A DNA stretch of 64,000 bases from Diaphorobacter sp. (GTDB lineage: Bacteria > Pseudomonadota > Gammaproteobacteria > Burkholderiales > Burkholderiaceae_C): the NCBI RefSeq assembly GCF_050176255.1, contig NZ_JBFXIE010000008.1; one strand, given 5' to 3'. This document shows positions 41,181 to 53,681 of this stretch, piece by piece. Numbering within the stretch: position 1 is the stretch's first letter; each line of letters begins with the position of its first letter. Below the pieces are notes generated by a model. It saw only the letters and a program-made list of their open reading frames with translations, was not told where the DNA came from and did no database searches. Position numbers and translations under genes: made by a program.

Positions 41181-44100
41181 GCTTTTGCCTTCGCCCGCCA
41201 TTTCTGGCGGGCGAATCAGCCGGAGCCGCCCTGGTGCCCCTGGCAGTGGTGTTTCAATCCGCGCCCGCCATTTCTGGCGGGCGAATTTCAGCACTTCGCC
41301 GTTCTGCCTGTGACTGCATCACTGTTTCAATCCGCGCCCGCCATTTCTGGCGGGCGAATTACTTCCGTCCCCTTCAGCGGATCGGTTTCCGCGACGTTTC
41401 AATCCGCGCCCGCCATTTCTGGCGGGCGAATTGACCGAGCCGCGTCTGCCTCTGGAAACCTTGCAGGCCGTTTCAATCCGCGCCCGCCATTTCTGGCGGG
41501 CGAATTCAGGTGCGGAAGATCGAGTCCACTACCGACATGCCGTTTCAATCCGCGCCCGCCATTTCTGGCGGGCGAATTGGCTTGGATTGTGGTGCTTTGC
41601 GCGATGCTCATAAGTTTCAATCCGCGCCCGCCATTTCTGGCGGGCGAATTGGTGCATTTGGCAAAGTCTTGTCGCCTTCGCGCGGTTTCAATCCACGCCC
41701 GCCATTTCTGGCGGGCGAATTCCCCTACTGCGCTCGGCTGCTCGGGTTCCCACAGGTTTCAATCCGCGCCCGCCATTTCTGGCGGGCGAATTTCGCCTCC
41801 AAAGCCTTGATATGGCCCGGTGTCATGGTTTCAATCCGCGCCCGCCATTTCTGGCGGGCGAATTGCCGCGAAGTCGTGGACATGCCCGGCAAGATCGTTG
41901 TTTCAATCCGCGCCCGCCATTTCTGGCGGGCGAATTGGTTTCCACGCGGTAGCCGCGCACGTAGGCGGTCGTTTCAATCCGCGCCCGCCATTTCTGGCGG
42001 GCGAATTGCAAGTCCTTGCCGTAGCCGCCGATCAGGTCGCCGTTTCAATCCGCGCCCGCCATTTCTGGCGGGCGAATTGTCGAAGTCCCCGACGCGCTGG
42101 TCAAGTCGTTCAAGGTTTCAATCCGCGCCCGCCATTTCTGGCGGGCGAATTTCCCACGCGGTCGTCGCTCTGCCCGGGCCGAAGTGGTTTCAATCCGCGC
42201 CCGCCATTTCTGGCGGGCGAATTGCGGCACCGGCCACAGATGCCGTGTCGGCACGGAAGTTTCAATCCGCGCCCGCCATTTCTGGCGGGCGAATTAACAC
42301 TGTGACCGTTTCCGGCGCTTCCCAGACTGGTTTCAATCCGCGCCCGCCATTTCTGGCGGGCGAATTCGTATGCCACCAGCGACATTTTTGTGTCGTAGGT
42401 CGTTTCAATCCGCGCCCGCCATTTCTGGCGGGCGAATTTCCAGCGTGCCGGGGAAGGCTTCGATGCCGCCCCGGTTTCAATCCGCGCCCGCCATTTCTGG
42501 CGGGCGAATTCATCAACGTGCGCGTGATGACCGGCGGCGACTTCGTGTTTCAATCCGCGCCCGCCATTTCTGGCGGGCGAATTAATTGCAGCCCACAGCA
42601 GCCCATGATCGTTGATGTTTCAATCCGCGCCCGCCATTTCTGGCGGGCGAATTTTGCGACGGAGCGCGGCGCCGTGGCTATCGGCGCGTTTCAATCCGCG
42701 CCCGCCATTTCTGGCGGGCGAATTGCGGCTGGCCCTGCGCCTCGTAGTAATCCAGCACCCGTTTCAATCCGCGCCCGCCATTTCTGGCGGGCGAATTGCC
42801 CAGGCGGGGCCGCCAGGGGCAAGTGGCGGCTTGTTTCAATCCGCGCCCGCCATTTCTGGCGGGCGAATTCGCGCTATTTGCCGCGCCACTCTCGCCAAAT
42901 GGCGAGTTTCAATCCGCGCCCGCCATTTCTGGCGGGCGAATTCGACTACAGGGACGATGCCGTTTTGGCGGTCAGGGTTTCAATCCGCGCCCGCCATTTC
43001 TGGCGGGCGAATTGACGCTTGAAAGCACAGGCGCCGAGGTGCTGATTGTTTCAATCCGCGCCCGCCATTTCTGGCGGGCGAATTAGCGCGCAAACCCGAT
43101 GCTTCGCCGACCACGATAGTTTCAATCCGCGCCCGCCATTTCTGGCGGGCGAATTTGTGCTGATTAACGGCCTGCGCAAGCATGCCACCGTTTCAATCCG
43201 CGCCCGCCATTTCTGGCGGGCGAATTTCACAGCCGCGATGCTTGCCGCGTGCGATGAGCCGTTTCAATCCGCGCCCGCCATTTCTGGCGGGCGAATTTGC
43301 CGCGAATCAGCGCGCAACTGCTGCTGCAACGAGTTTCAATCCGCGCCCGCCATTTCTGGCGGGCGAATTTTGCGGTTTGGCGCCAGAGACGGGTCGGGCC
43401 ATGGTTTCAATCCGCGCCCGCCATTTCTGGCGGGCGAATTGGCATCGTCGTTGCTGAGTATTACTGGATCGACCTGTTTCAATCCGCGCCCGCCATTTCT
43501 GGCGGGCGAATTTATGCTCGGTTTTCAACAGTTTTATTGGGGCACGACGTTTCAATCCGCGCCCGCCATTTCTGGCGGGCGAATTTGCGCGGCGTGCCCG
43601 GGCCTTCACAGGTTCCCGGCGGTTTCAATCCGCGCCCGCCATTTCTGGCGGGCGAATTTCCATCCTTGTGTGGGTTGGCCACCAGTGTGGGCTGTTTCAA
43701 TCCGCGCCCGCCATTTCTGGCGGGCGAATTTGCGGCACGGGTTGCGGCGTTGTCGTTCGACAGGCTGTTTCAATCCGCGCCCGCCATTTCTGGCGGGCGA
43801 ATTTCGGCGATCTGCTCGCGCAATGACTGGTTGTAGTCGTTTCAATCCGCGCCCGCCATTTCTGGCGGGCGAATTTGCAGGCGCTTGCGGTCTTCTTCGT
43901 AGGTGCGCTTGTTTCAATCCGCGCCCGCCATTTCTGGCGGGCGAATTTGATGCCTGACGGCCCGCCGCGCTTGAGTTCGCAGTTTCAATCCGCGCCCGCC
44001 ATTTCTGGCGGGCGAATTTGGGCGTCTTCCGCAACCTGCTGGCCGGCGTGATCGTTTCAATCCGCGCCCGCCATTTCTGGCGGGCGAATTTGCCGGCGTA

Positions 44101-44881
44101 GTTGACCGTGCCCATGGTGCCGATGTTTCAATCCGCGCCCGCCATTTCTGGCGGGCGAATTTCGGCATCGCCGTGTGTCTTTCGCAGCCCGCCAAGGTTT
44201 CAATCCGCGCCCGCCATTTCTGGCGGGCGAATTTTTTCGATGCGCTTGGCTATGTCTGCGCGCGTGGCGTTTCAATCCGCGCCCGCCATTTCTGGCGGGC
44301 GAATTTTTCCAACATGGCGCGGATGTCACGATGGACATGAGTTTCAATCCGCGCCCGCCATTTCTGGCGGGCGAATTTAAGCGAGCGCGCAGGTAGGCGT
44401 ATTTGTTCTGGTAGTTTCAATCCGCGCCCGCCATTTCTGGCGGGCGAATTTGTCCGGCATTGCGGCAAGCATCGCCACGGCGCTGTTTCAATCCGCGCCC
44501 GCCATTTCTGGCGGGCGAATTTTCGGGCAGTACATGCAAGAGTTCGCCGGCTTGTCCGTTTCAATCCGCGCCCGCCATTTCTGGCGGGCGAATTTGATGG
44601 CACGGTCATCATCACCAGCCCTGACCTGGTTTCAATCCGCGCCCGCCATTTCTGGCGGGCGAATTTGCGATGCGCGGGCGCTGCTCCAGCTGGTTTTGCT
44701 GTTTCAATCCGCGCCCGCCATTTCTGGCGGGCGAATTTACCGCCGCACCCTGCCGCGTGCCGACGTGCGGCTGTTTCAATCCGCGCCCGCCATTTCTGGC
44801 GGGCGAATTTGGCGCACGCTGGCCGGGTTGCCGCGATCCCACTTGTTTCAATCCGCGCCCGCCATTTCTGGCGGGCGAATT
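41181..44881 (-). CRISPR. Type I-C CRISPR array: 51 full repeats + 1 degenerate trailer repeat, about 51 spacers (33-37 nt)
   Basis: Repeat (plus strand) GTTTCAATCCGCGCCCGCCATTTCTGGCGGGCGAATT. Its reverse complement ends ...GGATTGAAAC, as type I-C repeats do, with stem CGCCCGCC/GGCGGGCG. Period is 70-74 nt, with first full repeat at 41251 and last at 44845 (counted by eye). Degenerate repeat at the cas-distal end; one variant repeat (G to A) near 41685. Confidence 0.97.
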
Positions 44882-45096
44882 TCCTTCGCATGTAACGCTT
44901 TGTTGGGCAACGGTTTTTACTGGCACTTGCGCGAACTGCGCCATGCGAAGCTGTTTTTGTACACCCAACCACCACCAAGCCATAAAAAACCAAATGAAAA
45001 CAAGGCGTTGCGAAGTGCGCGAACCTCCCAGGGAAAATCAGTCCACTGGAGGATCGCGCTACGCGTCATGGTACGACACAGCATGTGCTGCGCCGG
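44882..45096 (-). promoter_or_regulatory. CRISPR leader
   Basis: About 215-bp comparatively AT-rich non-coding stretch between the cas2 stop and the first repeat. Confidence 0.7.
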
Positions 45097-45387
45097 TCAC
45101 AGCACCAGCGGGCCGTCAAAATCCGTCGCTTTGAACGTGCCGTGCTCGATCACCTCGAAGCCGCGCGTGCCGGGCATCCGGTAGAGCCTAAGGCAGTCTG
45201 CAGACGGGTCTATTTCTGCCAGCAAACGGCGTTCCAGCGCTTCGTACTGGGCCATGTCCAGCTGGCATTCGAACACCGATCTTTGTACCCGCTGCCCGGT
45301 GCTTTCGCACACCCGCGCCACGCGGCGCAAGCGGCGCCGGCCCGCTTTGGTTTCGGTGTTGACGTCGTAGCAAACCAGCACCAGCAT
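45097..45387 (-). CDS. cas2: CRISPR-associated endoribonuclease Cas2
   Basis: 96 aa, MLVLVCYDV... ferredoxin-like Cas2 N-terminus. Confidence 0.93.
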
Positions 45388-45396
45388 GGCTGGCCC

Positions 45397-46425
45397 CTAC
45401 TTGGCCAAAAAGGGCACATAAGGCGCCCCGTCTTCGCGCACGGCGCGCGCCAGCAGACGGGCTTGCACCAATGGCACCAAACCCAGCGGCACGGATTGCG
45501 CCAGCAGTGGGTGGTTGATTTCGTCCTTCTTGCGCTCTTGGTGGGCTACCACCACGGCTTTGCGGGCATCTGGCTGCAAGACAACCGCGCCGCCTTCGCG
45601 CAGCACAAAGTCGTGTGTGCCCAACTGGCCTCTGTTGATCAGCGTCAGTGCCAGCCGGTCTGCCCAGGGGCGAAACTCTTCCATCAAGTCCAGGGCCAGG
45701 GCAGCGCGGCCCGGGCGCAAGGCGTGCAAGAAGCCCACTTGGGGATCAAGCCCGGCTGCCTCTAGGGCGCTGCGGCAATCGTTCATCCACATGGCATACA
45801 AAAATGACAGCAGGGCGTTGAGACGGTCGCGCGGCGGGCGGCGTGTGCGCCCGTCCATGGCAAAGGCGGCGCGCTGGTCGGGGCGCACCAGTAGGCCCAG
45901 GCCGCTGAAGTATTGGCGTGCGGCTTCGCCTTCCACACCGCGCAGGCTATCTAGGTTGGTGGTGCCGGGCAGGGCGCGCAGGCTGGCGGCCAGGTCATCT
46001 GCCAGGCGGGCCAAGGCTTTGGCTTCGTCTTCTGACTTGGCTTCTCGGGCGCCGCGCTGCAAAACTTGCCGGGTGTTTTTGATCTTGCCGGCCACGCTGG
46101 ATCGGGCCATGTCCAGCGTGAATGCCGGATCGGCCACGCGTTGAAACTGCGCTTGGCGCAGCAGCACATTACCGCTGACAGCCCCTTCCAGCCGCGCTTT
46201 GAAGCGGCCGTTGTCGTCCAGCAGCACCAGCGCAATACCCCGGTCGGCCAGCAGGTGCATCAAGGGTGCAGACAGGTGGATATGGCCAAAACACACCACG
46301 GCGCTCAGGTGGTGCAGAGGCACGCGCAGCCGGGTTTCGTGATTGACCTCGACACGAAGGGTTTCGTTGTCCAGCCGCAGGTAGGTTTCGGGCGTTGTGA
46401 CGTAGAGGGTGTTGAGCAGTTGCAT
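45397..46425 (-). CDS. cas1: CRISPR-associated integrase Cas1 (type I-C)
   Basis: 342 aa, MQLLNTLYVTTPETYLRLDNETL... typical Cas1c. Adjacent to cas4 and cas2. Confidence 0.95.
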   Translation of the reverse strand: MQLLNTLYVTTPETYLRLDNETLRVEVNHETRLRVPLHHLSAVVCFGHIHLSAPLMHLLADRGIALVLLDDNGRFKARLEGAVSGNVLLRQAQFQRVADPAFTLDMARSSVAGKIKNTRQVLQRGAREAKSEDEAKALARLADDLAASLRALPGTTNLDSLRGVEGEAARQYFSGLGLLVRPDQRAAFAMDGRTRRPPRDRLNALLSFLYAMWMNDCRSALEAAGLDPQVGFLHALRPGRAALALDLMEEFRPWADRLALTLINRGQLGTHDFVLREGGAVVLQPDARKAVVVAHQERKKDEINHPLLAQSVPLGLVPLVQARLLARAVREDGAPYVPFLAK

Positions 46426-46449: not shown

Positions 46450-47106
46450 TCACGCGTCGGGGTCGAACAAGGTGTGCCGGGCCGATTCCAGGTTTGCTTG
46501 TGTGACCTTGGGCTGGCAGCGCTCTTGCAGCGAGCAGCCTTTGCAGCGCTGTTGTGCTTGCGGGCCAGCCAGAGGCGACGGCAGTTGCCTGCTGGCCAGC
46601 ATCTGCCGTACGGCTTGTGCCGTACGTGCCACATCGTCCCGTAATTGCGCCGTGATGGGCACGGTGCGGCGGCGCCTGGAACTGGCGTAATACAGCGCGC
46701 CCTCCGGCACGGGTTTGCCGGTCATGGTCTCCAGGCACAGAGCTTGCGCGGCCAGCTGAAGGTCGTCACAGGCGGCAATGTCGGCGGCCTTGTGGCGGCT
46801 GCCGTGTTTGTATTCGACGGGGTAGGGCACGCCTCCGGCCAGAAACTCCACCACGTCGGCCTTGCCTATCAGACCCAGCGTGTCGTGCCACAGCGGCAGG
46901 GCGCGCTCCACGCGCACGCCTTTGGCCGTTTCGACGCCAGGCAGGTCGGCCTTGGCATGCACTGCCTGGCCGCGCAGGGTGTGGAGGTTGTCGTCAAACA
47001 CCTGCTCCAGGTGGATCAGGCCACACTGGCGCGGGCAGTATTGCCAGTGCTGCAAGGCCGACAGGGCAATGGGATCGGGTTCTGGCGCGGGGGTGGCGGT
47101 GGGCAT
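46450..47106 (-). CDS. cas4: CRISPR-associated exonuclease Cas4
   Basis: RecB-like nuclease motifs, N-terminal Cys (YCPRQC) plus C-terminal CKGCSLQERC cluster. Confidence 0.92.
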   Translation of the reverse strand: MPTATPAPEPDPIALSALQHWQYCPRQCGLIHLEQVFDDNLHTLRGQAVHAKADLPGVETAKGVRVERALPLWHDTLGLIGKADVVEFLAGGVPYPVEYKHGSRHKAADIAACDDLQLAAQALCLETMTGKPVPEGALYYASSRRRRTVPITAQLRDDVARTAQAVRQMLASRQLPSPLAGPQAQQRCKGCSLQERCQPKVTQANLESARHTLFDPDA

Positions 47107-47111
47107 GGGCG

Positions 47112-47990
47112 CTACGGTTTTTTGGGCGCCTTCCTGGCTTTGGCTGGCGGTATGGCCTTGATCGCTTCGGCTGCCTTGGGCGTGGCCGGTGGCAGGTAGT
47201 TGTCACTGGTCACTACCGATTTACCGGTTTGGCCCTCCAGCTGCGTACGTGCCTGATGGGCGATGCGGCCACCGGTTTGGGCTGCGGCCTTGTTTTCTGC
47301 CATGCCGGTGGCATCCACACTTTCTGCAATCTGGCGAGTCGATAGCTCGGCCAGAGCGGTAAAAATCAGCTCAGCCTCGCTCATGTGGTCGCGCAGGTTG
47401 TGGCTTTTCAGGCCCTTTTTTGCTTTGTGCTGCGCCACGCTCAGGCCCGACCATTCTTGGTGAATGATGTTGGTCAGGATGGCGAACTCGCTGCCCGCTT
47501 TGATGTCGTGCCCGCTCCAGTAGTCGGTGAGCTTATTGCGGGTTTCCTGTCCAGTCATGCGCTGCTGGATCCACTTGTCGCTGCGGCCATGCTGCTGCCA
47601 GGTTTGGCGCGCGCGGTCCAGCGCCTGGGCTGGGTCGGCCATTTCTTGCATGCGTTCGTAGCCCACCTTGGCCAGCCACAGTTTGATGGGTTCTGCCTTG
47701 GGGCTGGGGATGGATTGCACGATGCGAAGCAGGCCTTGGGCGGTGGCGCAATCGGTCAGGCGCTGCTTGCCATCCGCAGCGGTCAATTTCAACCGTCGAC
47801 AAAATGTCGACAGTTCAGCGCCGTCTTCCGCCTTGACGCGCTGCTTCATCTTGAACCAGTAGTCGCGGGCGTTTTCGCTGTCGGTCAGCACCTGCACGAT
47901 GTCAATGACCGAAAACCACCAGGTTTCGGTGGCCTCGTCGTACACGCGGCGGATGCCCTGGCTGTCGAATTGAGTGGGCAGGGTTTTCAT
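47112..47990 (-). CDS. Bro-N / DinD-like (DNA-damage-inducible protein D family) protein embedded in the cas operon
   Basis: 292 aa. N-terminal FDSQGIRRVYDEATETWWFSVIDIVQVL (Bro-N-like). Central GYERMQE...WIQQRMTGQETRNKLTDYW...KKGLKSHNLRDHMSEAELIF resembles E. coli DinD (KGLKKNQKILDHMGSTELAANLF). K/P/A-rich tail. Gaps of 11 nt to cas7 and 5 nt to cas4. Confidence 0.65.
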   Translation of the reverse strand: MKTLPTQFDSQGIRRVYDEATETWWFSVIDIVQVLTDSENARDYWFKMKQRVKAEDGAELSTFCRRLKLTAADGKQRLTDCATAQGLLRIVQSIPSPKAEPIKLWLAKVGYERMQEMADPAQALDRARQTWQQHGRSDKWIQQRMTGQETRNKLTDYWSGHDIKAGSEFAILTNIIHQEWSGLSVAQHKAKKGLKSHNLRDHMSEAELIFTALAELSTRQIAESVDATGMAENKAAAQTGGRIAHQARTQLEGQTGKSVVTSDNYLPPATPKAAEAIKAIPPAKARKAPKKP

Positions 47991-48001
47991 GTGCCCCCGG
48001 G

Positions 48002-49000
48002 TCAGAAAAGCCGGGTCAAGGTCACGCCCGCTGCGGGCTGCAGCGATTGCCCCACAGCCAGACTTTGCCCATCAAAGGCAACCGCATACGCATCAAAACT
48101 GCGCGCCACGGCACCGGCTTCTTTGGGCTGAACTTGCAGGCGCTCAAACAAGGCGTGCGCCGGGGCGTTACCCAGTTCGCTGTCGTGTTGGAACACGTAC
48201 AGCCCGCGCGTGGACATTTCGCCGCGTGCCGCGGAGCGGTCGTGCTCGAACATCTGGCCCAGCGCTTGCCACAGCAACTCCAAGTCGTCCTGCCCAAAGC
48301 CGGTTTGCTTGGCCAGAAAGGACGAGACAAAGCCATGCGCCACATACACGCCATAGGGCACGGTGTGCTTGCGGCCCATGGTGCGGTTGTCACCCTGCTG
48401 CTTTTCTGCCTCAGCCTCGGTGGCCACCGCCATGCGGGTGATGGAGTGCTCCAGCGCCACGATGGGTTCGACCGAACGCGCAAACGTCAGCTGCACTGGG
48501 CCACGCACCTGGCCACAGTTCACTCCAGTGGACATGACGGCGCCAAAGGTGCGCACATCAAAAAAGTTCTGGCACATCCACTGGCGCGCCAGGGCCACCT
48601 CGTCGGCGCTGCCTTTGCGCTTGTCTTTGCCGGGCTTTTTCTTTTTGGTGTCAGCTGCTTCGTTTTCTGTAGCTGCTTGCGCTTGCTCCTCGGGCGTTTC
48701 AGCCAGATTTAATGCGGAATAGGCACGCTGGTTTTGGTGGTTCAGGATGGCTTTTTCGCGCACGTAAATCTCAAAACGCTTTTCGCCATCCACCGGGGTG
48801 CGCTCGTCTTGCTCTTTCACCAGCCCGACAAAGTTGCGCACTTTGCGCTTGAGCGACACATCGGTGACCAGGCCATGGCCGGATTCGGCATCCAGGCGCG
48901 GCATATTGCCCGCGTCGGGGTCACCGTTGGGATTGCCGTCTTTGACATCAAAAATCAGCACAAAGTCATAGCGGTGGGCGAGGGGTTGGGCGGGGCTCAT
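48002..49000 (-). CDS. cas7: Type I-C Cascade backbone subunit Cas7c (Csd2)
   Basis: [25 protein letters not shown] hallmark of Csd2/Cas7c. Confidence 0.95.
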
Positions 49001-49383
49001 GCGGTTTCTCCTTCAGGGGTGCCGTGGTCGGTGTCTTGGGATTTGCGAGTGAAAAAGTCCTGGCGCTGGTGGTAGTAGCCCAGCGCGAAACGGCCCTGGT
49101 CGGGCAACGGCAGATGTTTGGGAAAGTCGTCGACAGGGCCCAGCACTTCGCCCAGCAGCTTTTCAAACACTGTCACACGCCCGGGCATCAGCTTCTTGAG
49201 GTGTGCGTTCTTCAGGCGCAGCAAGGTGGTGAACACCGCCACCGGTGTGCTGGAAGCGGCGCCGTAATAGCGGTCGCGGATGGTGGCGTTCAGCCCAGGG
49301 CTGGCTTCTTCCTGGATTTTTTCCAGCACCGCAAAGAGCCGCCCCAGGCGGTAGGCCGGGTGCGTGTTGCTGAGGTCGAGCAT
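48997..49383 (-). CDS. cas11c: Candidate internally translated small subunit Cas11c (in-frame 3' part of cas8c)
   Basis: In-frame ATG at 49383 preceded by GAAGGAG and 8 nt (CAGAGAAGGAGTTTTTGCCATG). It gives a 128-aa helical product [24 protein letters not shown]..., consistent with the published internal Cas11 of type I-C. Confidence 0.55.
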
Positions 49384-50748
49384 GGGCAAAAACTCCTTCT
49401 CTGTACTTTGGCGAAAGCGGATTTGGCGGTTGAGGCAGGCCTTGATGGCTGCGGCGCGCGGGTAATTGATGTTTTGCTCGGCTCGGCAACGCCCCACGGC
49501 AGCGTTGAGCCACAGGCTGGGGTACGGCGCATCCGGCCCTGCCAGCAGGGCATCCACGATGGCGCCGCCCAGGTTGGGCGGAATGTTGTCGGCCTTGTTT
49601 TGCAGCGCCACGGCGGTCAGCAGGCGGAACAGCGAGGGGTACTGCGGGTCATGCGGCCCCCGCGCAAGCGACAGGTCTTCAAAGTGCTGCGCGATGCGCT
49701 GACCCAGTTCGCACAGGGTGATGCAGTGGTAAAAGCGGATGCTGATGCGCGCAGCATTGGGCGCGAGGCCCAGCACGTGGTAGCGCAGGTTTTCATCTGA
49801 TTCGCCCCACTGCCCGCTGTGCACGGCATCCAGCAGCGCGCGCACGGCGGTGGTACCGCCGTCGGGGTTGTCCTGGAAGATGTCGCCAAAGATGGTCTCG
49901 AACGGGTCTTGCCGCTCAGCCCAGAACACCGTGGAGGCGTCGCCCACCTGCATGCGCTGGGGCGAATCCTTGCGCAGCAGGTGGTTCAGCGCGGTGGTGT
50001 AAGCGAAGGCGGCAGCGCGGCTGACGGGGGCGTTTTCGCCCTGGCGCTCAGTCTTGCCGTAGGACTCAAAAGCGCGCGCGTTGAACGAGACGATGTTGGC
50101 ACCTGAGGTCTGCGCGCCCCACACCCCTTTGATCGACGCATGCAGGCGTTCGACCGGCGCCCGCTCGCCCGTCACCAGGCACATGGCCTGCGGCGCATCG
50201 TCAGCGCCAGCGGTGCTGAGCGCCGCTTGCACCACGGCGGGGCGCTGGCACACCAGATCCAGGTCGCCGTGCAGGCGGAAGCTCATCACGGCGTTACCCT
50301 CCAGCGCCTCGTTCCAGGCGGGCTGGCGCTCCAGTTGTGCCACATCCCGCCGGTGCAGAAACCGCAACACAGCCTGGATGCCTGCATCCTCCCTGACCAC
50401 TTCTGGCAGCGCCTCGATACGCGCACGAAACGCCGCATGCTGCTCGGCCACGCGCTCGGGCTTGCCCTTGGTGTCCACGCCCAGCACATATTCCAGTGTG
50501 TCCCACAGCAGGTTGGCCGCCACCCCCGAGGTTTTCTTGACGCCCTGGGGCACGCGAAAGACGCGCGCCACCTTCTTTTTGCCCTGCAGCTCGCGGGTGT
50601 CGCGCAGTTGCAGCAGTTCGCCGTCGGTACTGATCTCCAGGATGAACGGAATCTCCTTCTGCTCTAGTCCGAAGGCGGGCAGGTGCTGTGCCGGGTCGGG
50701 GTCATCGCATTTGCGGCGGTAGTAGTCGCTCAGGGCTTGCAAGATCAT
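48997..50748 (-). CDS. cas8c: Type I-C large subunit Cas8c (Csd1)
   Basis: 583 aa, [13 protein letters not shown]... typical Csd1 N-terminus. 4-nt overlaps with cas5 and cas7. Confidence 0.93.
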
Positions 50749-51401
50749 CCGCGTGCCTCCTCGAAGGCTGGCACCTGCACCACGCCACGCTCCATACGCG
50801 CATTGAAAAAGCGCGGCTGCGGGTCGGCGGGGTTCGAAAAATCCAGGTCGTGCAGCATCCAGCCCAGCTCGCGCGTGTCCTCAATGGGTGGGGCTGGGGG
50901 CGTGTCGGCGGTGACCAAGCAGAAGTCGGCAGCGAACTCGCGGCAGCCCAGGTAGGGCTGGTTCACACACTGGCCTTTGCGGGTGCGGCGGGTGAACATC
51001 TCGGTGTATTTCATCAAGGGCTCGGTGCAGCCGGGCGCCAGCGACAGATCGGCGTGGATGCGGTAGGCCACGTCGCGCAAAAAGTAGCCCGCACGCTGCT
51101 GGCGATCGTCTTCGATATACAGGCCCAGCGTGCCGCTGCCCGCCGCCATCGTCTGCTGCACGTTGCGCGTTGACACCACAGCGCTGACCTCATTGCGCCG
51201 CAGGTTGATAAAGCGGATGGGCTTGAGTACTTCGATACGCTGCACTTGCCAGCGAATGGCGGGCTTCCACAAAATGGACTCGAATACGGCGCGGGCGGCA
51301 GACGGCGTCATCACATCGTAGGACACGCGTTCCACCTTCATCTCCGGGCGGGTAAAGCAGGCAAAGGGGCCTGCAACTTCGAGGCAAAAGTGGGACGACA
51401 T
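50745..51401 (-). CDS. cas5: Type I-C pre-crRNA endoribonuclease Cas5c (Cas5d)
   Basis: CLEVAGPFACFTRPEMKVERVSYDVMTPSAARAVFESI typical Cas5d. Confidence 0.95.
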   Translation of the reverse strand: MSSHFCLEVAGPFACFTRPEMKVERVSYDVMTPSAARAVFESILWKPAIRWQVQRIEVLKPIRFINLRRNEVSAVVSTRNVQQTMAAGSGTLGLYIEDDRQQRAGYFLRDVAYRIHADLSLAPGCTEPLMKYTEMFTRRTRKGQCVNQPYLGCREFAADFCLVTADTPPAPPIEDTRELGWMLHDLDFSNPADPQPRFFNARMERGVVQVPAFEEARG

Positions 51402-51410
51402 GGGGCTCCT

Positions 51411-53681
51411 TCACAAAACAAAACCGCCGGGTTGGTAAAGGTCGGCATCGCCTGCAAGGCCCAGAATGCTGCTGTATAGATTATCAGCATCTGCCAGCAC
51501 GTACAGGCCCGGCACGGGCAGCAAGAGATCGCCTTGCTGCAGCATCTTGTCAGCCTTCCATTTCGGGATACTTACGGTGTAGCGCTGCAATTTGCGCGTC
51601 AGCCAGCGCTGCGGGCCTTCTGCCGCCAGGATATTGAGCAGTTTGTCGATCGTGTTGCGCTGTGGTGCGTAGCGCACCACTACGGGGACACTGTCTTGAT
51701 CGTCAATCAGTCGGAAGGCTTGTGCGGCGGTCCGAAACTGCACGGCCAGCGTGCGTGGCTCCACCTTGAGCAGGCCAACGATGCCGTGCTTGTCCAAATC
51801 CACCGAGTGGTAGAACTCGGTGAAGTAGTGAGTAAAAAGGCCACGCGCCAACGGGTTGTGCGCCTGCCCCTGCAGGGTGGCGATGCACGCATCGGCGCCT
51901 TTACGCAAATGTCCGAGCGGGGGTTTCTCGGGCGGCACAAACACCACCACGCGCCCCATGCCGGGCAGCCGCCCTTCACGGTTGCAGCGACCCGCAGCCT
52001 GGACGATGGAGTCAAGCCCTGCCAGCGCGCGGTACACCACGGGAAAGTCGATGTCCACGCCCGCCTCTACCAGTTGGGTGCTGACCACGCGCAATGGCCG
52101 CAGGTCGCGCCCTTCGCGTTTGGCTTGTAGGCGTTGTTTGATTTCGGCAATGACATCCTTGCGATGCGCACCGCACATCAGAGCCGACAGGTGCAAGGTG
52201 CCCTCGGGCATCAGGCGCTGCAACTCGCGCGCGGCTTTGCGGGTGTTGACAATGGCCAGCACGCAATCCTCGGCGCCGAGCTGCGCGGCCAGGTCGGCCC
52301 AAGGGGTGGGTGTTGTCCAGTCGGCAGGAAGCTCTACCTGCACGCGCTGGAGGGCGTCGAACAGGGCATCGGGGTGATCGATGATTTCGCGTACGTTTTC
52401 CAGTCCGCGCAGGTTTTTATGGGCATCAAAGTACGTGGTGCTGGCCAGCGCTGGCTGGGTGGCGGTGCACAGCACCACCGTCACACCGTAGTGCGCCACC
52501 AGCAGCCTGAGCACATCCAGAATCGGTTGAAGAAAGTCGGGCGGTAGCTGCTGCGCCTCGTCCAGCACGATGACGCTGCCCACCAGGTTGTGCAGCTTGC
52601 GACAGCGTGAAGTTTTGGCGGCAAACAGTGATTCGAACAACTGCACGTTGGTGGTGACGACGAGGGGCGCATCCCAGTTTTCGCAGGCCAGGCGGCTGCG
52701 GGCGGTTTCGTCTTTCTCGGCGGCATCAAACTGACTGTGGTGCTCCACCAGCACCTCGTCGCCCAAGCCATGGAACACGTTGCGGAACACGTCCGCCGTC
52801 TGCTCGATGATGCTGATGTAGGGGATGGCGTAGATGATGCGGCGCTGGCCGTGGGCCTGCGCATGCTCCAGCGCAAACGCCAGGCTGGAGAGCGTTTTGC
52901 CGCCGCCCGTGGGTACGGTGAGCGAGAAAAACCCCTTGGGCAACGCAGCCTGGGCGCGACACTGGCGCAAGACATCCGCACGCAAGCGGTTGACCAGCGT
53001 GTTGGCGGCGGGCAGCGCCGCCATGTGGGCGTCAAATGCAGCGCGCATTTGCCCCAGCGTGGCAAAGCCTGTGCGGTGCGCGGGCTTGCCCGCATCAAAG
53101 TGCGCTTCGGTGTCCAGAAAGTCGGCATCCACAAGGCAAGAAAACAGCATGCGCACCCAGAGGGCAAAGCCTTCTGCGCCGCCCGGAATCACTCGTAAAT
53201 CAGGAGTGAAGCTACCTGGGCTCAATACCTCAGCGGGCGGGTTGGCTGCCAGCGTTTCTTTGAGCTCTTGCGCGCTGTCAGGGTGACGCAGCCGTAGCTG
53301 TAGGCCTTGGTGCCAGTCGTCCAGGCCTACGTGGTGCCCTGCAATCAGGTAGGCCAGTACGTGCGCGGCCAACTTGCCTTGGGCGCCATGGGTTGTTCCC
53401 AGTTGCTGCAAAGCCCACAGCGCGCCAGCAGCGGAATGGGTTTTTTCGCGCCCCCCCACTTTGCCTTCGATGTGCGCGTTTTCGCCATCGGCCAGACGCA
53501 CATAGCGTTGAAACCCGGGTCGGTATTTACCCAGGTCGTGCCACAGGCCAGCCAGATAGGCCCAGCGCAGCGTGGGCTCTGTGGCGTCAAAGGGCTGGGA
53601 AAAATCGGCCGCTAGCGCAGCCACCTGGTTCAGATGTTCAGCCAGCAAATGCCCGCCCGAATGGGCCCAGGGTGTTGACAT
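51411..53681 (-). CDS. cas3: CRISPR-associated helicase/nuclease Cas3 (HD + SF2 helicase)
   Basis: HD motif LAGLWHDLGK, Walker A VPTGGGKT, DEAQ box VIVLDEAQ. Confidence 0.95.
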   Translation of the reverse strand: MSTPWAHSGGHLLAEHLNQVAALAADFSQPFDATEPTLRWAYLAGLWHDLGKYRPGFQRYVRLADGENAHIEGKVGGREKTHSAAGALWALQQLGTTHGAQGKLAAHVLAYLIAGHHVGLDDWHQGLQLRLRHPDSAQELKETLAANPPAEVLSPGSFTPDLRVIPGGAEGFALWVRMLFSCLVDADFLDTEAHFDAGKPAHRTGFATLGQMRAAFDAHMAALPAANTLVNRLRADVLRQCRAQAALPKGFFSLTVPTGGGKTLSSLAFALEHAQAHGQRRIIYAIPYISIIEQTADVFRNVFHGLGDEVLVEHHSQFDAAEKDETARSRLACENWDAPLVVTTNVQLFESLFAAKTSRCRKLHNLVGSVIVLDEAQQLPPDFLQPILDVLRLLVAHYGVTVVLCTATQPALASTTYFDAHKNLRGLENVREIIDHPDALFDALQRVQVELPADWTTPTPWADLAAQLGAEDCVLAIVNTRKAARELQRLMPEGTLHLSALMCGAHRKDVIAEIKQRLQAKREGRDLRPLRVVSTQLVEAGVDIDFPVVYRALAGLDSIVQAAGRCNREGRLPGMGRVVVFVPPEKPPLGHLRKGADACIATLQGQAHNPLARGLFTHYFTEFYHSVDLDKHGIVGLLKVEPRTLAVQFRTAAQAFRLIDDQDSVPVVVRYAPQRNTIDKLLNILAAEGPQRWLTRKLQRYTVSIPKWKADKMLQQGDLLLPVPGLYVLADADNLYSSILGLAGDADLYQPGGFVL

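What the first reader, a model, noticed from the sequence alone, without database searches (positions are those of the whole stretch)
43119..44882. Abrupt switch at the repeat/spacer junction halfway through the CRISPR array
I read the nucleotide after the 37-nt repeat (plus strand ...GCGAATT|N) for all 51 repeats. In the 26 trailer-side units it is mixed: T 5, A 4, G 11, C 6. In the 25 leader-side units (from about 43119 to the leader) it is T in 24 of 25; the exception is at about 43441. On the transcribed strand the junction therefore changes from N|AATTCGCC to A|AATTCGCC. One explanation is that the duplicated repeat grew from 37 to 38 nt, for example through a 1-nt shift of the leader-side integration nick into the leader A-run. 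The G preference seen just after the repeat does move one position outward in the newer half, which fits this. However, the mean unit length is essentially unchanged (about 71.9 nt in both halves by my count), which argues against a longer repeat with spacers of unchanged length. That instead suggests a change in PAM-distal prespacer trimming or ruler behaviour. Either reading implies a dated change in adaptation-machinery behaviour recorded in the array.
Basis: seen in the sequence. Interest (0 to 1): 0.62.

Follow-up and report, generated by a model that had tools for sequence, protein, structure and literature searches.

The report
CRISPR repeat grew by one base
Halfway through this bacterium's type I-C CRISPR array the repeat lengthened from 37 to 38 bases after one extra A appeared where the leader meets the first repeat; this natural event behaves like laboratory repeat-insertion mutants, and it coincides with an unexplained one-base shortening of the newer spacers.

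Summary
After the 37-nt repeat, T follows in 5 of 26 trailer-side units and in 24 of 25 leader-side units (Fisher p = 1.3e-8).

The extra base (A on the transcribed minus strand) is not copied from the target. In Variovorax phage V45v66, 8 of 8 old spacers match through their last base. Of 3 new spacers, 2 mismatch at the terminal A; for sp33 it is the only mismatch.

The leader is 214/214 nt identical in 14 sister contigs and always ends ...GCGAAGG. Only the first repeat base varies:
- GATTCG in 9 contigs
- AAATTCG in the window and its twin L152
- ATTCG in 1 contig

The window's own array records G (trailer repeat), then A (26 repeats), then AA (24 of 25 repeats).

So a 1-nt insertion arose at the leader/first-repeat junction, the leader-side cut stayed next to the leader, and every later repeat inherited 38 nt. 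This matches engineered insertions upstream of the first inverted repeat in E. coli I-E and H. hispanica I-B.

Still unexplained: templated spacers are about 0.9 nt shorter after the switch (p ≈ 0.001), so unit length stays about 72. A Cas1 V340L change unique to this strain is an untested candidate. Overall this is an ordinary mechanism in a neat natural record.

The parts
41181..44881 (-). Type I-C CRISPR array: 51 intact repeats, one degenerate trailer repeat and 51 spacers. It is transcribed from the leader at the high-coordinate end.
   Evidence: The repeat ends ATTGAAAC on the minus strand and folds into a 9-bp hairpin. Rfam CRISPR-DR9 matches on the minus strand at 38-39 bits, below the 45-bit gathering score. 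A TTC PAM lies 5' of 11/11 protospacers in this orientation.
41181..41217 (-). Degenerate trailer repeat. On the transcribed strand it starts GATTCG, the state seen in sister strains and in the family consensus.
   Evidence: Sequence read. Compared with family repeats and sister junctions.
41251..43118 (-). Older block: repeats 1-26, 37 nt each (AATTCG...GAAAC), with spacers sp01-sp26. The base before each repeat is variable and copied from the protospacer.
   Evidence: For 8 of 8 old spacers with a V45v66 protospacer the last base is templated.
43119..44882 (-). Newer block: repeats 27-51, effectively 38 nt (AAATTCG...GAAAC), with spacers sp27-sp50. The extra A is the + strand T just after each 37-nt repeat.
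   Evidence: 24 of 25. In V45v66 sp33's terminal A faces G (its only mismatch) and sp35's faces C, while sp32's A faces A, which is uninformative.
43404..43441 (-). The one exception in the newer block: a repeat of regular 37-nt size. The spacer sp31 that abuts it (43441-43475) is 35 nt and ends in C (+ strand G at 43441).
   Evidence: Read as an occasional cut at the repeat-defined position; compare the minority of regular-sized repeats in Goren 2016.
44882..44882 (-). The inserted base at the leader/first-repeat junction (A on the transcribed strand). It is absent from 10 sister contigs and from the family architecture.
   Evidence: Ungapped leader alignment. The distance from leader motif GTTCGCG to repeat core TCGCC is 58 nt here and 57 nt in 58 of 73 loci, the window included. 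Sister junctions.
44883..45096 (-). Leader of 214 nt, ending ...ACATGCGAAGG. It contains the family-conserved GTTCGCG motif, an A-tract and TT[GA]N6AAGN.
   Evidence: Identical over 214/214 nt in L144-L157. Conserved across about 70 Comamonadaceae I-C loci. No sigma-70 consensus promoter was found.
45097..45387 (-). cas2
   Evidence: TIGR01573, 62.7 bits against a cut-off of 24.5.
45397..46425 (-). cas1 (type I-C). Codon 340 (45406-45408) encodes L, against V in every sister contig except L152.
   Evidence: TIGR03640, 495 bits against a cut-off of 385. V340L.
46450..47106 (-). cas4
   Evidence: TIGR00372, 109.5 bits against a cut-off of 65.
47112..47990 (-). Bro-N-domain gene between cas7 and cas4. 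It is conserved at this position in the sister contigs. No role in the switch is shown.
Evidence: No NCBIfam hit. Precomputed Pfam PF02498 for the same gene in L144-L152 and L154-L155.
48002..53681 (-). Interference genes: cas7 (48002-49000), cas8c (48997-50748), cas5c (50745-51401), cas3 (51411-53681).
   Evidence: TIGR02589, TIGR01863 and TIGR01876 above their cut-offs; the Cas3 HD domain (TIGR01596) above its cut-off and the helicase core (TIGR01587) just below.

Best explanation
This is an active type I-C array in which the leader-proximal repeat acquired a 1-nt insertion at its very first position.

Shown:
- The leader ends ...GCGAAGG in this strain and in every close relative.
- The base(s) after it differ: G in most sisters, AA here.
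- The array records the order G (trailer repeat), then A (26 repeats), then AA (24 of the 25 newest).
- The extra A is not copied from protospacers.
- The other repeat end (GAAAC) and the PAM-side end of the spacers are unchanged.

Inferred:
- During each acquisition Cas1-Cas2 cuts the transcribed strand immediately after the leader, and cuts the other strand at a site anchored inside the repeat.
- A base inserted between the leader and the first inverted repeat therefore lies inside the duplicated segment and is inherited by every later repeat. This gives an abrupt, permanent 37-to-38 switch.
- One acquisition (sp31) used the repeat-defined position and produced a regular 37-nt copy.
- The insertion probably arose by slippage or misincorporation at the first base laid down when the gap is filled from the leader 3'-OH. 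Within this species that base exists as G, A, AA or absent, while the surrounding 214-nt leader and the rest of the repeat are invariant.

Not explained: templated spacers are about 0.9 nt shorter after the switch.
For: 1. Recount: T follows the repeat in 5/26 versus 24/25 units, p = 1.3e-8.
2. Protospacers in phage V45v66 all carry a TTC PAM flush with the spacer's 5' end (11/11). The last base is templated in 8/8 old spacers. In new spacers the terminal A faces G (sp33, the only mismatch in 36) and C (sp35), and faces A once (sp32).
3. Diverged homologues also mismatch at that base: sp37 with a TTC PAM, sp34 and sp45.
4. The leader aligns without gaps to relatives up to ...GCGAAGG and is followed here by one extra base. 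The distance from leader motif to repeat core is 57 nt in 58 of 73 loci, 55-56 in the 36-nt-repeat arrays, and 58 in the window.
5. Fourteen sister contigs share the identical 214-nt leader. The junction is GATTCG in 9, AAATTCG in L152, ATTCG in L153, and 2 contigs break exactly at AAGG.
6. The trailer repeat starts GATTCG.
7. Laboratory precedent: single-base insertions upstream of IR1 in E. coli gave more than 76% elongated duplicated repeats (PMC5039180). In H. hispanica duplication always starts at the leader junction and ends at a fixed distance from a mid-repeat motif (PMC4872114). In type I-C the non-PAM end is joined at the leader site (10.1101/2022.05.30.494039).
Against: - Only three new-half spacers have a high-identity protospacer, and one of them is uninformative.
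- A pure DNA insertion predicts unchanged spacer length and a 73-nt unit. The observed unit stays about 72 because templated spacers shorten from 34.85 to 33.96 nt.
- The strain also carries a unique Cas1 V340L, so a protein contribution cannot be excluded.
- Three family loci (L022, L024, L047) have 1-2 extra leader bases with ordinary 37-nt repeats, so a leader-distance rule is not universal.
- No sister with an AATTCG (37-nt, A-type) leader-proximal repeat was found.
Confidence: 0.8

Rival explanations
1. The A is spacer-derived. The adaptation machinery began to select or trim prespacers so that their PAM-distal 3' end is an A (a downstream motif, as with the second Cas4 of P. furiosus), and the repeat stayed 37 nt.
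For: Unit length and spacer length including the A are unchanged (34.85 versus 34.92). The terminal A of sp32 is matched by the phage.
Against: sp33 mismatches the phage only at that A, and sp35 also mismatches there. By contrast 8/8 old spacers match at their last base, giving a likelihood ratio of roughly 50 against templating. This reading does not explain why the leader junction itself carries one extra A relative to 10 sister contigs with an identical leader.
Confidence: 0.03
2. A protein change (for example Cas1 V340L) shifted the leader-side cut by one base, or changed the non-PAM-end ruler, and this produced the switch.
For: L340 occurs only in the window and L152, the two AA-type junctions. 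It is V in the other 12 sister contigs whose cas1 was compared and V (74) or I (5) in 79 family loci, inside a conserved C-terminal PYVPFV(A/P)K motif. It could account for the roughly 1-nt shorter spacers.
Against: A cut shifted one base into the leader would duplicate a G (the leader ends AAGG in every strain), not an A. The extra A is physically present at the junction, so a DNA change is required in any case. The solved A. halodurans I-C Cas1 has L at the aligned position, so the substitution is conservative. When V340L arose relative to the switch is unknown.
Confidence: 0.05
3. The array is a chimera. Its leader-side half (with the 38-nt repeat) and its trailer-side half come from two co-existing strains, joined by recombination between repeats or by metagenomic or draft misassembly.
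For: The genome is a 69-contig draft. Junction variants co-exist in nature, and two sister contigs break exactly at the junction, as expected for within-sample polymorphism. Effector modules have been exchanged between sister strains.
Against: Both halves use the same otherwise unique repeat (AATTCG...AGAAAT...). Both target the same 33-kb part of phage V45v66. The origin of the 38-nt repeat in the donor would still be the same insertion, so this changes the history and not the mechanism.
Confidence: 0.07
4. A non-templated A is added to the 3' end of prespacers (polymerase-like A-tailing) before integration, and the Cas1-Cas2 ruler counts it.
For: This would explain both the non-templated A and the constant unit length.
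Against: No such activity is known for Cas1-Cas2-Cas4. It leaves the extra A at the leader junction, where no prespacer end is joined, as a coincidence. It does not explain why the onset is abrupt.
Confidence: 0.03

Closest known systems
Engineered 'elongated repeat' mutants of the E. coli type I-E array (Goren et al. 2016, PMC5039180)
   Same: A single base inserted upstream of the leader-proximal inverted repeat is retained and duplicated, so most new repeats are one base longer (>76%) and a minority are regular-sized. Here the figures are 23 of 24 and 1 of 24. The leader-distal cut stays anchored inside the repeat.
   Different: This case is natural, not engineered. It is type I-C with Cas4, a 37-nt repeat and a TTC PAM. 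The event is fixed and recorded over 24 successive acquisitions. Spacer length was not found discussed in that paper in a term search, whereas here it drops by about 1 nt.
H. hispanica type I-B repeat-duplication rules (Wang et al. 2016, PMC4872114)
   Same: Duplication starts at the leader-repeat junction and ends at a fixed distance from a mid-repeat motif. Changing the spacing gives aberrant duplication sizes of 29-33 bp.
   Different: In that system 2-nt changes close to the leader end abolished adaptation. Here a 1-nt insertion at position 1 is fully tolerated.
Type I-C Cas4-Cas1-Cas2 adaptation (A. halodurans; Lee et al. 2019 PMC6519985; Dhingra et al. 2022 preprint 10.1101/2022.05.30.494039)
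   Same: The same gene set and the same TTC PAM. The non-PAM end is trimmed by host exonucleases and joined at the leader site, which is the junction that changed here.
   Different: That system has a 32-nt repeat. The parts of that preprint read here do not report how the leader-side site is chosen when leader and repeat cues disagree, which this array records.
PAM-derived last repeat base in E. coli I-E (from my own knowledge, not checked here)
   Same: A base at a repeat/spacer boundary whose origin (repeat or spacer) has to be settled by protospacer comparison.
   Different: There the ambiguous base is protospacer-derived and on the PAM side. Here it is repeat-derived and on the PAM-distal side.

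Membership tests
Type I-C CRISPR-Cas | Gene set cas3, cas5c, cas8c, cas7(Csd2), cas4, cas1c, cas2 | tested here: met
   NCBIfam type I-C models above curated cut-offs: Cas1c 495/385, Cas8c 579/219, Cas7 402/182, Cas5c 187/85, with cas4 and cas2 also above their cut-offs. For Cas3 the HD domain is above its cut-off and the helicase core just below (95/102).
Type I-C CRISPR-Cas | 5'-TTC PAM next to the protospacer end that abuts the repeat 3' end (…ATTGAAAC) | tested here: met
   11 of 11 V45v66 protospacers are preceded by TTC.
Type I-C CRISPR-Cas | Repeat belongs to a curated CRISPR repeat family | tested here: inconclusive
   Rfam CRISPR-DR9 matches at 38-39 bits, below its 45-bit gathering score, on the minus strand. 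The repeat is 37 nt, against 32 nt in the model I-C systems.
Elongated-repeat outcome of a leader-proximal repeat insertion (Goren 2016; Wang 2016) | The extra base lies between the leader and the first inverted repeat of the leader-proximal repeat | tested here: met
   Leader ...GCGAAGG, then A, then AATT-CGCCCGCC. Compared with 14 sister contigs and about 70 family loci.
Elongated-repeat outcome of a leader-proximal repeat insertion (Goren 2016; Wang 2016) | The extra base is duplicated with the repeat and is not protospacer-derived | tested here: met
   23 of 24 new spacers are followed by A+repeat. The A is not templated in 2 of 3 strong protospacers, while 8/8 old ends are templated. The sample is small.
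Elongated-repeat outcome of a leader-proximal repeat insertion (Goren 2016; Wang 2016) | The leader-distal cut is unchanged | tested here: met
   All 51 repeats end GAAAC, and new-half protospacers start immediately after TTC.
Elongated-repeat outcome of a leader-proximal repeat insertion (Goren 2016; Wang 2016) | Direct demonstration that the insertion causes the longer duplication | not testable with these tools
   Needs an adaptation assay with defined leader-repeat constructs.
PAM-distal end motif selection (two-Cas4 type, P. furiosus) | The conserved terminal base is present in the protospacer | tested here: not met
   The phage has G opposite the terminal A of sp33 and C opposite that of sp35.

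The most novel reading that the evidence does not exclude
Unit length (repeat plus spacer, about 72 nt) may be held constant because the length of the non-PAM 3' overhang is fixed in the target-bound complex. In that model a fixed number of nucleotides fits between the prespacer duplex end and the repeat's internal anchor, so one extra base on the repeat side selects prespacers one base shorter. Alternatively, the strain-specific Cas1 V340L in the conserved C-terminal tail reset that ruler. Either reading would make this array a natural read-out of how the PAM-distal spacer end is measured in Cas4-containing systems.
Probability: 0.15. Interest if true: 0.65.

Novelty: new member of a known kind. 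Interest (0 to 1): 0.4.

Why it matters
The array acts as a natural experiment. When the leader cue and the repeat cue for the first integration cut were put one base out of register, the type I-C integrase followed the leader in 23 of 24 acquisitions. This extends to a Cas4-containing system, in the wild, the rules derived from engineered E. coli and Haloarcula arrays.

Near-identical strains carry G, AA or no base at repeat position 1, between an invariant leader and an invariant repeat. This points to the first base laid down during gap repair as a mutational hotspot. That matters when repeat variants are used as lineage markers, and for CRISPR-calling software that assumes a single repeat length.

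The roughly 1-nt compensating drop in spacer length, if causal, would bear on the open question of how the non-PAM end is measured.

Tried and rejected
- Self-targets and a second array in the genome: none. There is one array only, and only chance-level spacer matches apart from a PAM-less 27/35 match of sp14.
- Plasmid collection: only Thermus repeat-like hits.
- Metagenome scan for the exact repeat: 0 contigs.
- IMG/VR scans with cores of sp27, sp31, sp36 and sp44, and degenerate patterns for sp34 and sp45: 0 hits. The sp37 pattern found only the same 6-mismatch homologue.
- Relatives of the V45v66 1903-aa protein in IMG/VR are only 36-50% identical and carry no useful protospacers.
- Whole-genome searches of 825 genomes (family, relatives, two other genera) gave only weak, diverged hits.
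- An exhaustive scan of V45v66 allowing up to 11 mismatches added no protospacers.
- Search for other mid-array repeat-length switches in about 40 family arrays: none. The G-runs in L020 and L015 are compatible with chance and G-richness.
- A general 1:1 compensation between repeat and spacer length is rejected. Arrays with 36-nt repeats have 34.7-nt spacers against 34.4 nt for 37-nt repeats (p = 0.06).
- Exact look-ups of array ORFs and ribE, and a protein search with an array ORF, found no further arrays of the window type.
- The genome behind L144 is not held.
Full report
**Observation.** I extracted the array by script. On the + strand there are 51 copies of GTTTCAATCCGCGCCCGCCATTTCTGGCGGGCGAATT between 41251 and 44881 (one has a single mismatch). 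A degenerate copy lies at 41181-41217. The base after the repeat is T5 A4 G11 C6 in units 1-26. In units 27-51 it is T in 24 of 25. The exception is G at 43441, and the last T (44882) is the leader junction.

**System and orientation.** Downstream on the minus strand lie, in 5'-to-3' order:
- cas3 (51411-53681)
- cas5c, cas8c and cas7
- a Bro-N-domain gene (47112-47990)
- cas4 (46450-47106)
- cas1 (45397-46425)
- cas2 (45097-45387)

The type I-C NCBIfam models score above their curated cut-offs. The repeat ends ATTGAAAC on the minus strand, folds into a 9-bp hairpin in both the 37- and 38-nt forms, and resembles Rfam CRISPR-DR9 on that strand, although below the gathering score. The array is therefore transcribed leader (44883-45096) to trailer on the minus strand. 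The variable base is the last (PAM-distal) base of each spacer, or an extra first base of the following repeat. The genome (2.97 Mb, 69 contigs, 65.7% GC) has no other array.

**Is the A copied from the target?** A blastn of the whole array against the phage collection hit one phage many times: Variovorax phage V45v66 (PV558790.1). Local alignment of all spacers to that record gave 11 protospacers with 0-3 mismatches.
- All 11 are preceded by TTC, flush with the spacer's 5' end.
- For the 8 old-half spacers (sp02, 09, 10, 11, 12, 13, 16, 26) the last spacer base matches the phage every time.
- For the new half, sp33 matches at 35 of 36 positions, and the only mismatch is the terminal A (the phage has G).
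- sp35 has its terminal A opposite C.
- sp32 has A opposite A, which is uninformative.

If the A were templated, placing these mismatches at that one position by chance has a probability of about 0.002. If it were not templated, the pattern is the expected one. Diverged homologues found in other genomes and metagenomes agree weakly: sp37 with a TTC PAM (A against T), sp34 (A against C), sp45 (A against G), sp39 (A against A). The A is therefore repeat-associated. The newer repeats are effectively 38 nt (AAATTCG...GAAAC).

**Where the A comes from: the family.** A search with Cas1 fetched 80 Comamonadaceae type I-C loci.
- Their arrays use 37-nt repeats of the same family (G[GA][TA]TCGCCCG...GGATTGAAAC) with a variable base before the repeat.
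- Their leaders are conserved: GTTCGCG motif, A-tract, TT[GA]N6AAGN, then the repeat.
- The distance from the GTTCGCG motif to the repeat core TCGCC is 57 nt in 58 of 73 loci (the window included). It is 55-56 nt in the arrays whose repeat is only 36 nt (L018, L043, L045, L058, L075), and 58 nt in the window.
- An ungapped alignment with the closest locus (L005) runs to ...ATGCGAAGG. L005 then continues GATTCG, whereas the window continues A-AATTCG.

In the 36-, 37- and 38-nt classes the junction therefore sits at the same place relative to the proximal leader, and the repeat's 5' end varies. L022, L024 and L047 are exceptions, with 1-2 extra leader bases and ordinary repeats.

**Where the A comes from: sister strains.** Exact-protein look-ups with Cas2, and with the V340 form of Cas1, returned 14 contigs from other assemblies (L144-L158). 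Their leader is identical to the window's over all 214 nt. After ...GCGAAGG they read:
- GATTCG in nine contigs (L145-L151, L156, L157)
- AAATTCG in one contig (L152), which has 0 nucleotide differences from the window across Bro-N to cas2
- ATTCG in one contig (L153, one G fewer)
- nothing further in two contigs (L144=L154, L155), which stop exactly at AAGG. That is where an assembly graph would branch if position 1 were polymorphic in the sample; this last point is my inference.

The window's own trailer repeat starts GATTCG. The array thus records G, then A (26 repeats), then AA (24 of 25 repeats), at a position that varies between otherwise identical strains. The leader is invariant, so the cut did not move into the leader. 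Instead the repeat side gained a base.

- In H. hispanica I-B, duplication always starts at the leader junction and ends at a fixed distance from a mid-repeat motif, so changed spacing gives 29-33-bp duplications (PMC4872114).
- In E. coli I-E, single-base insertions upstream of the first inverted repeat gave more than 76% elongated, duplicated repeats and a minority of regular size (PMC5039180).

The window shows the same behaviour in nature. The extra A lies between the leader and the CGCCCGCC stem. It is duplicated in 23 of 24 acquisitions, one acquisition (sp31) gave a regular repeat, and the GAAAC end and the PAM-side spacer end are untouched.

The origin of the insertion is inferred. Repeat position 1 is the first base synthesised when the gap is filled from the leader 3'-OH, next to GG|G or GG|AA runs. 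Misincorporation (G to A), slippage (+A) and primer misalignment (-G, as in L153) would give exactly the states observed.

**What remains unexplained.** If the A belongs to the repeat, templated spacers are 33.96 nt after the switch against 34.85 nt before (Mann-Whitney p = 0.0013, t-test p = 0.0005). The step is visible locally: 34, 34, 34 before and 33, 33, 34, 33 after. A bare insertion does not predict this.

For context:
- Family array means are 34.42 ± 0.37 nt.
- Arrays with 36-nt repeats average 34.72 nt. This is the direction expected for partial compensation (p = 0.06) but far from 1:1.
- Adjacent 24-spacer windows in other long arrays differ by up to 0.75-0.79 nt in 3 of 8 cases.

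Candidate explanations, none testable here:
1. A fixed path length between the prespacer duplex end and the repeat anchor, which would favour shorter overhangs on the longer target.
2. Slower integration at the altered junction, which would allow more exonuclease nibbling.
3. Cas1 V340L.
4. Drift.

On candidate 3: L340 is found only in the window and L152. The residue is V in the other 12 sister contigs whose cas1 was compared and V or I in 79 family loci, within a conserved PYVPFV(A/P)K tail. However, the solved A. halodurans I-C Cas1 has L at the aligned position, so the change is conservative.

**Rivals.**
- A templated PAM-distal A preference is contradicted by the protospacers, and it does not explain the junction base.
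- A protein-driven shift of the cut into the leader would duplicate G, not A.
- A-tailing of prespacers leaves the junction A as a coincidence.
- A chimeric array (recombination or misassembly between co-existing strains) cannot be excluded without reads. It changes only the history, not the mechanism.

**Novelty and verdict.** The literature searches turned up the engineered precedents but no description of a natural mid-array repeat-length switch. A 2026 survey of repeat mutations (PMC12839519) contains neither 'indel' nor 'insertion' in a term search. I classify this as a new natural member of a known kind of event. Interest is moderate.

**Limits.**
- Only three high-identity new-half protospacers are available.
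- No sister strain was found with the intermediate AATTCG leader-proximal repeat.
- No further arrays of the window type were found.

Noticed in passing
45406-45408 (cas1 codon 340): Cas1 has L340 in the window and in L152 only. All 12 other sister contigs whose cas1 was compared have V, and 79 family loci have V (74) or I (5), within a conserved C-terminal PYVPFV(A/P)K motif. The solved A. halodurans I-C Cas1 has L at the aligned position.
   Followed up: partly
L145, L148, L150, L153 (downstream of cas2): Sister strains with the identical leader have tiny arrays: two spacers plus the same degenerate trailer repeat, then ribE. The window has 51 spacers and shares none with them. Their trailer repeat is preceded by A (AATTCG...), whereas the window's starts with G.
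   Followed up: partly
L145, L148, L150 versus window 47112-53681: The effector module has been exchanged within the species. Some sister contigs carry cas3, cas5, cas8c and cas7 of 804, 241, 641 and 280 aa (against 756, 218, 583 and 332 here) and a 298-aa Bro-N gene. Meanwhile cas4-cas1-cas2 and the leader stay nearly identical.
   Followed up: no
47112-47990: A Bro-N-domain gene sits between cas7 and cas4 here and in every sister contig that reaches that position. It has no NCBIfam hit.
   Followed up: partly
L001-L004 (phage PV558790.1), record positions 100263-132760: All 11 protospacers lie within a 33-kb stretch of the 159.6-kb phage V45v66, on both strands. The phage was isolated on Variovorax SCN45, which lacks CRISPR-Cas according to its paper. 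The window's genome is a 2.97-Mb organism that is the only species of its GTDB genus. This suggests either a shared phage module or a wider host range.
   Followed up: partly
L018, L043, L045, L058, L075: These related arrays have 36-nt repeats: the first base of the 37-nt parse is variable. The leader junction is at the usual place and spacers are about 34.6 nt. The 5' end of this repeat family therefore varies in length (36, 37, 38 nt) across lineages.
   Followed up: yes
L144/L154 and L155, contig ends: Two assemblies break exactly after the leader's ...GCGAAGG, rather than about 30 nt into the repeat as the other short contigs do. That is the expected pattern if repeat position 1 is polymorphic within those samples.
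   Followed up: no
L015 spacers 10-17 and 18-25; L015 spacers 8 and 9; L018 spacers 7 and 8: L015 has a segmental duplication of eight spacers. In L015 and L018, adjacent spacers come from the same protospacer and differ by one base at the PAM-distal end, a direct sign of ±1-nt trimming heterogeneity at that end.
   Followed up: no
L006 repeats 16-20; L020 repeats 3-10: L006 has a block of five consecutive repeats with A instead of G at position 2, flanked by G-type repeats on both sides. L020 has eight consecutive spacers ending in G before a repeat that starts with G. Either may be chance or a transient repeat variant.
   Followed up: no
Genome contig C8:7110-7144 (outside the window) versus sp14 (42224-42258): Spacer sp14 matches the host chromosome at 27 of 35 positions with no TTC PAM. 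This is probably a gene shared between host and phage, not self-targeting.
   Followed up: partly
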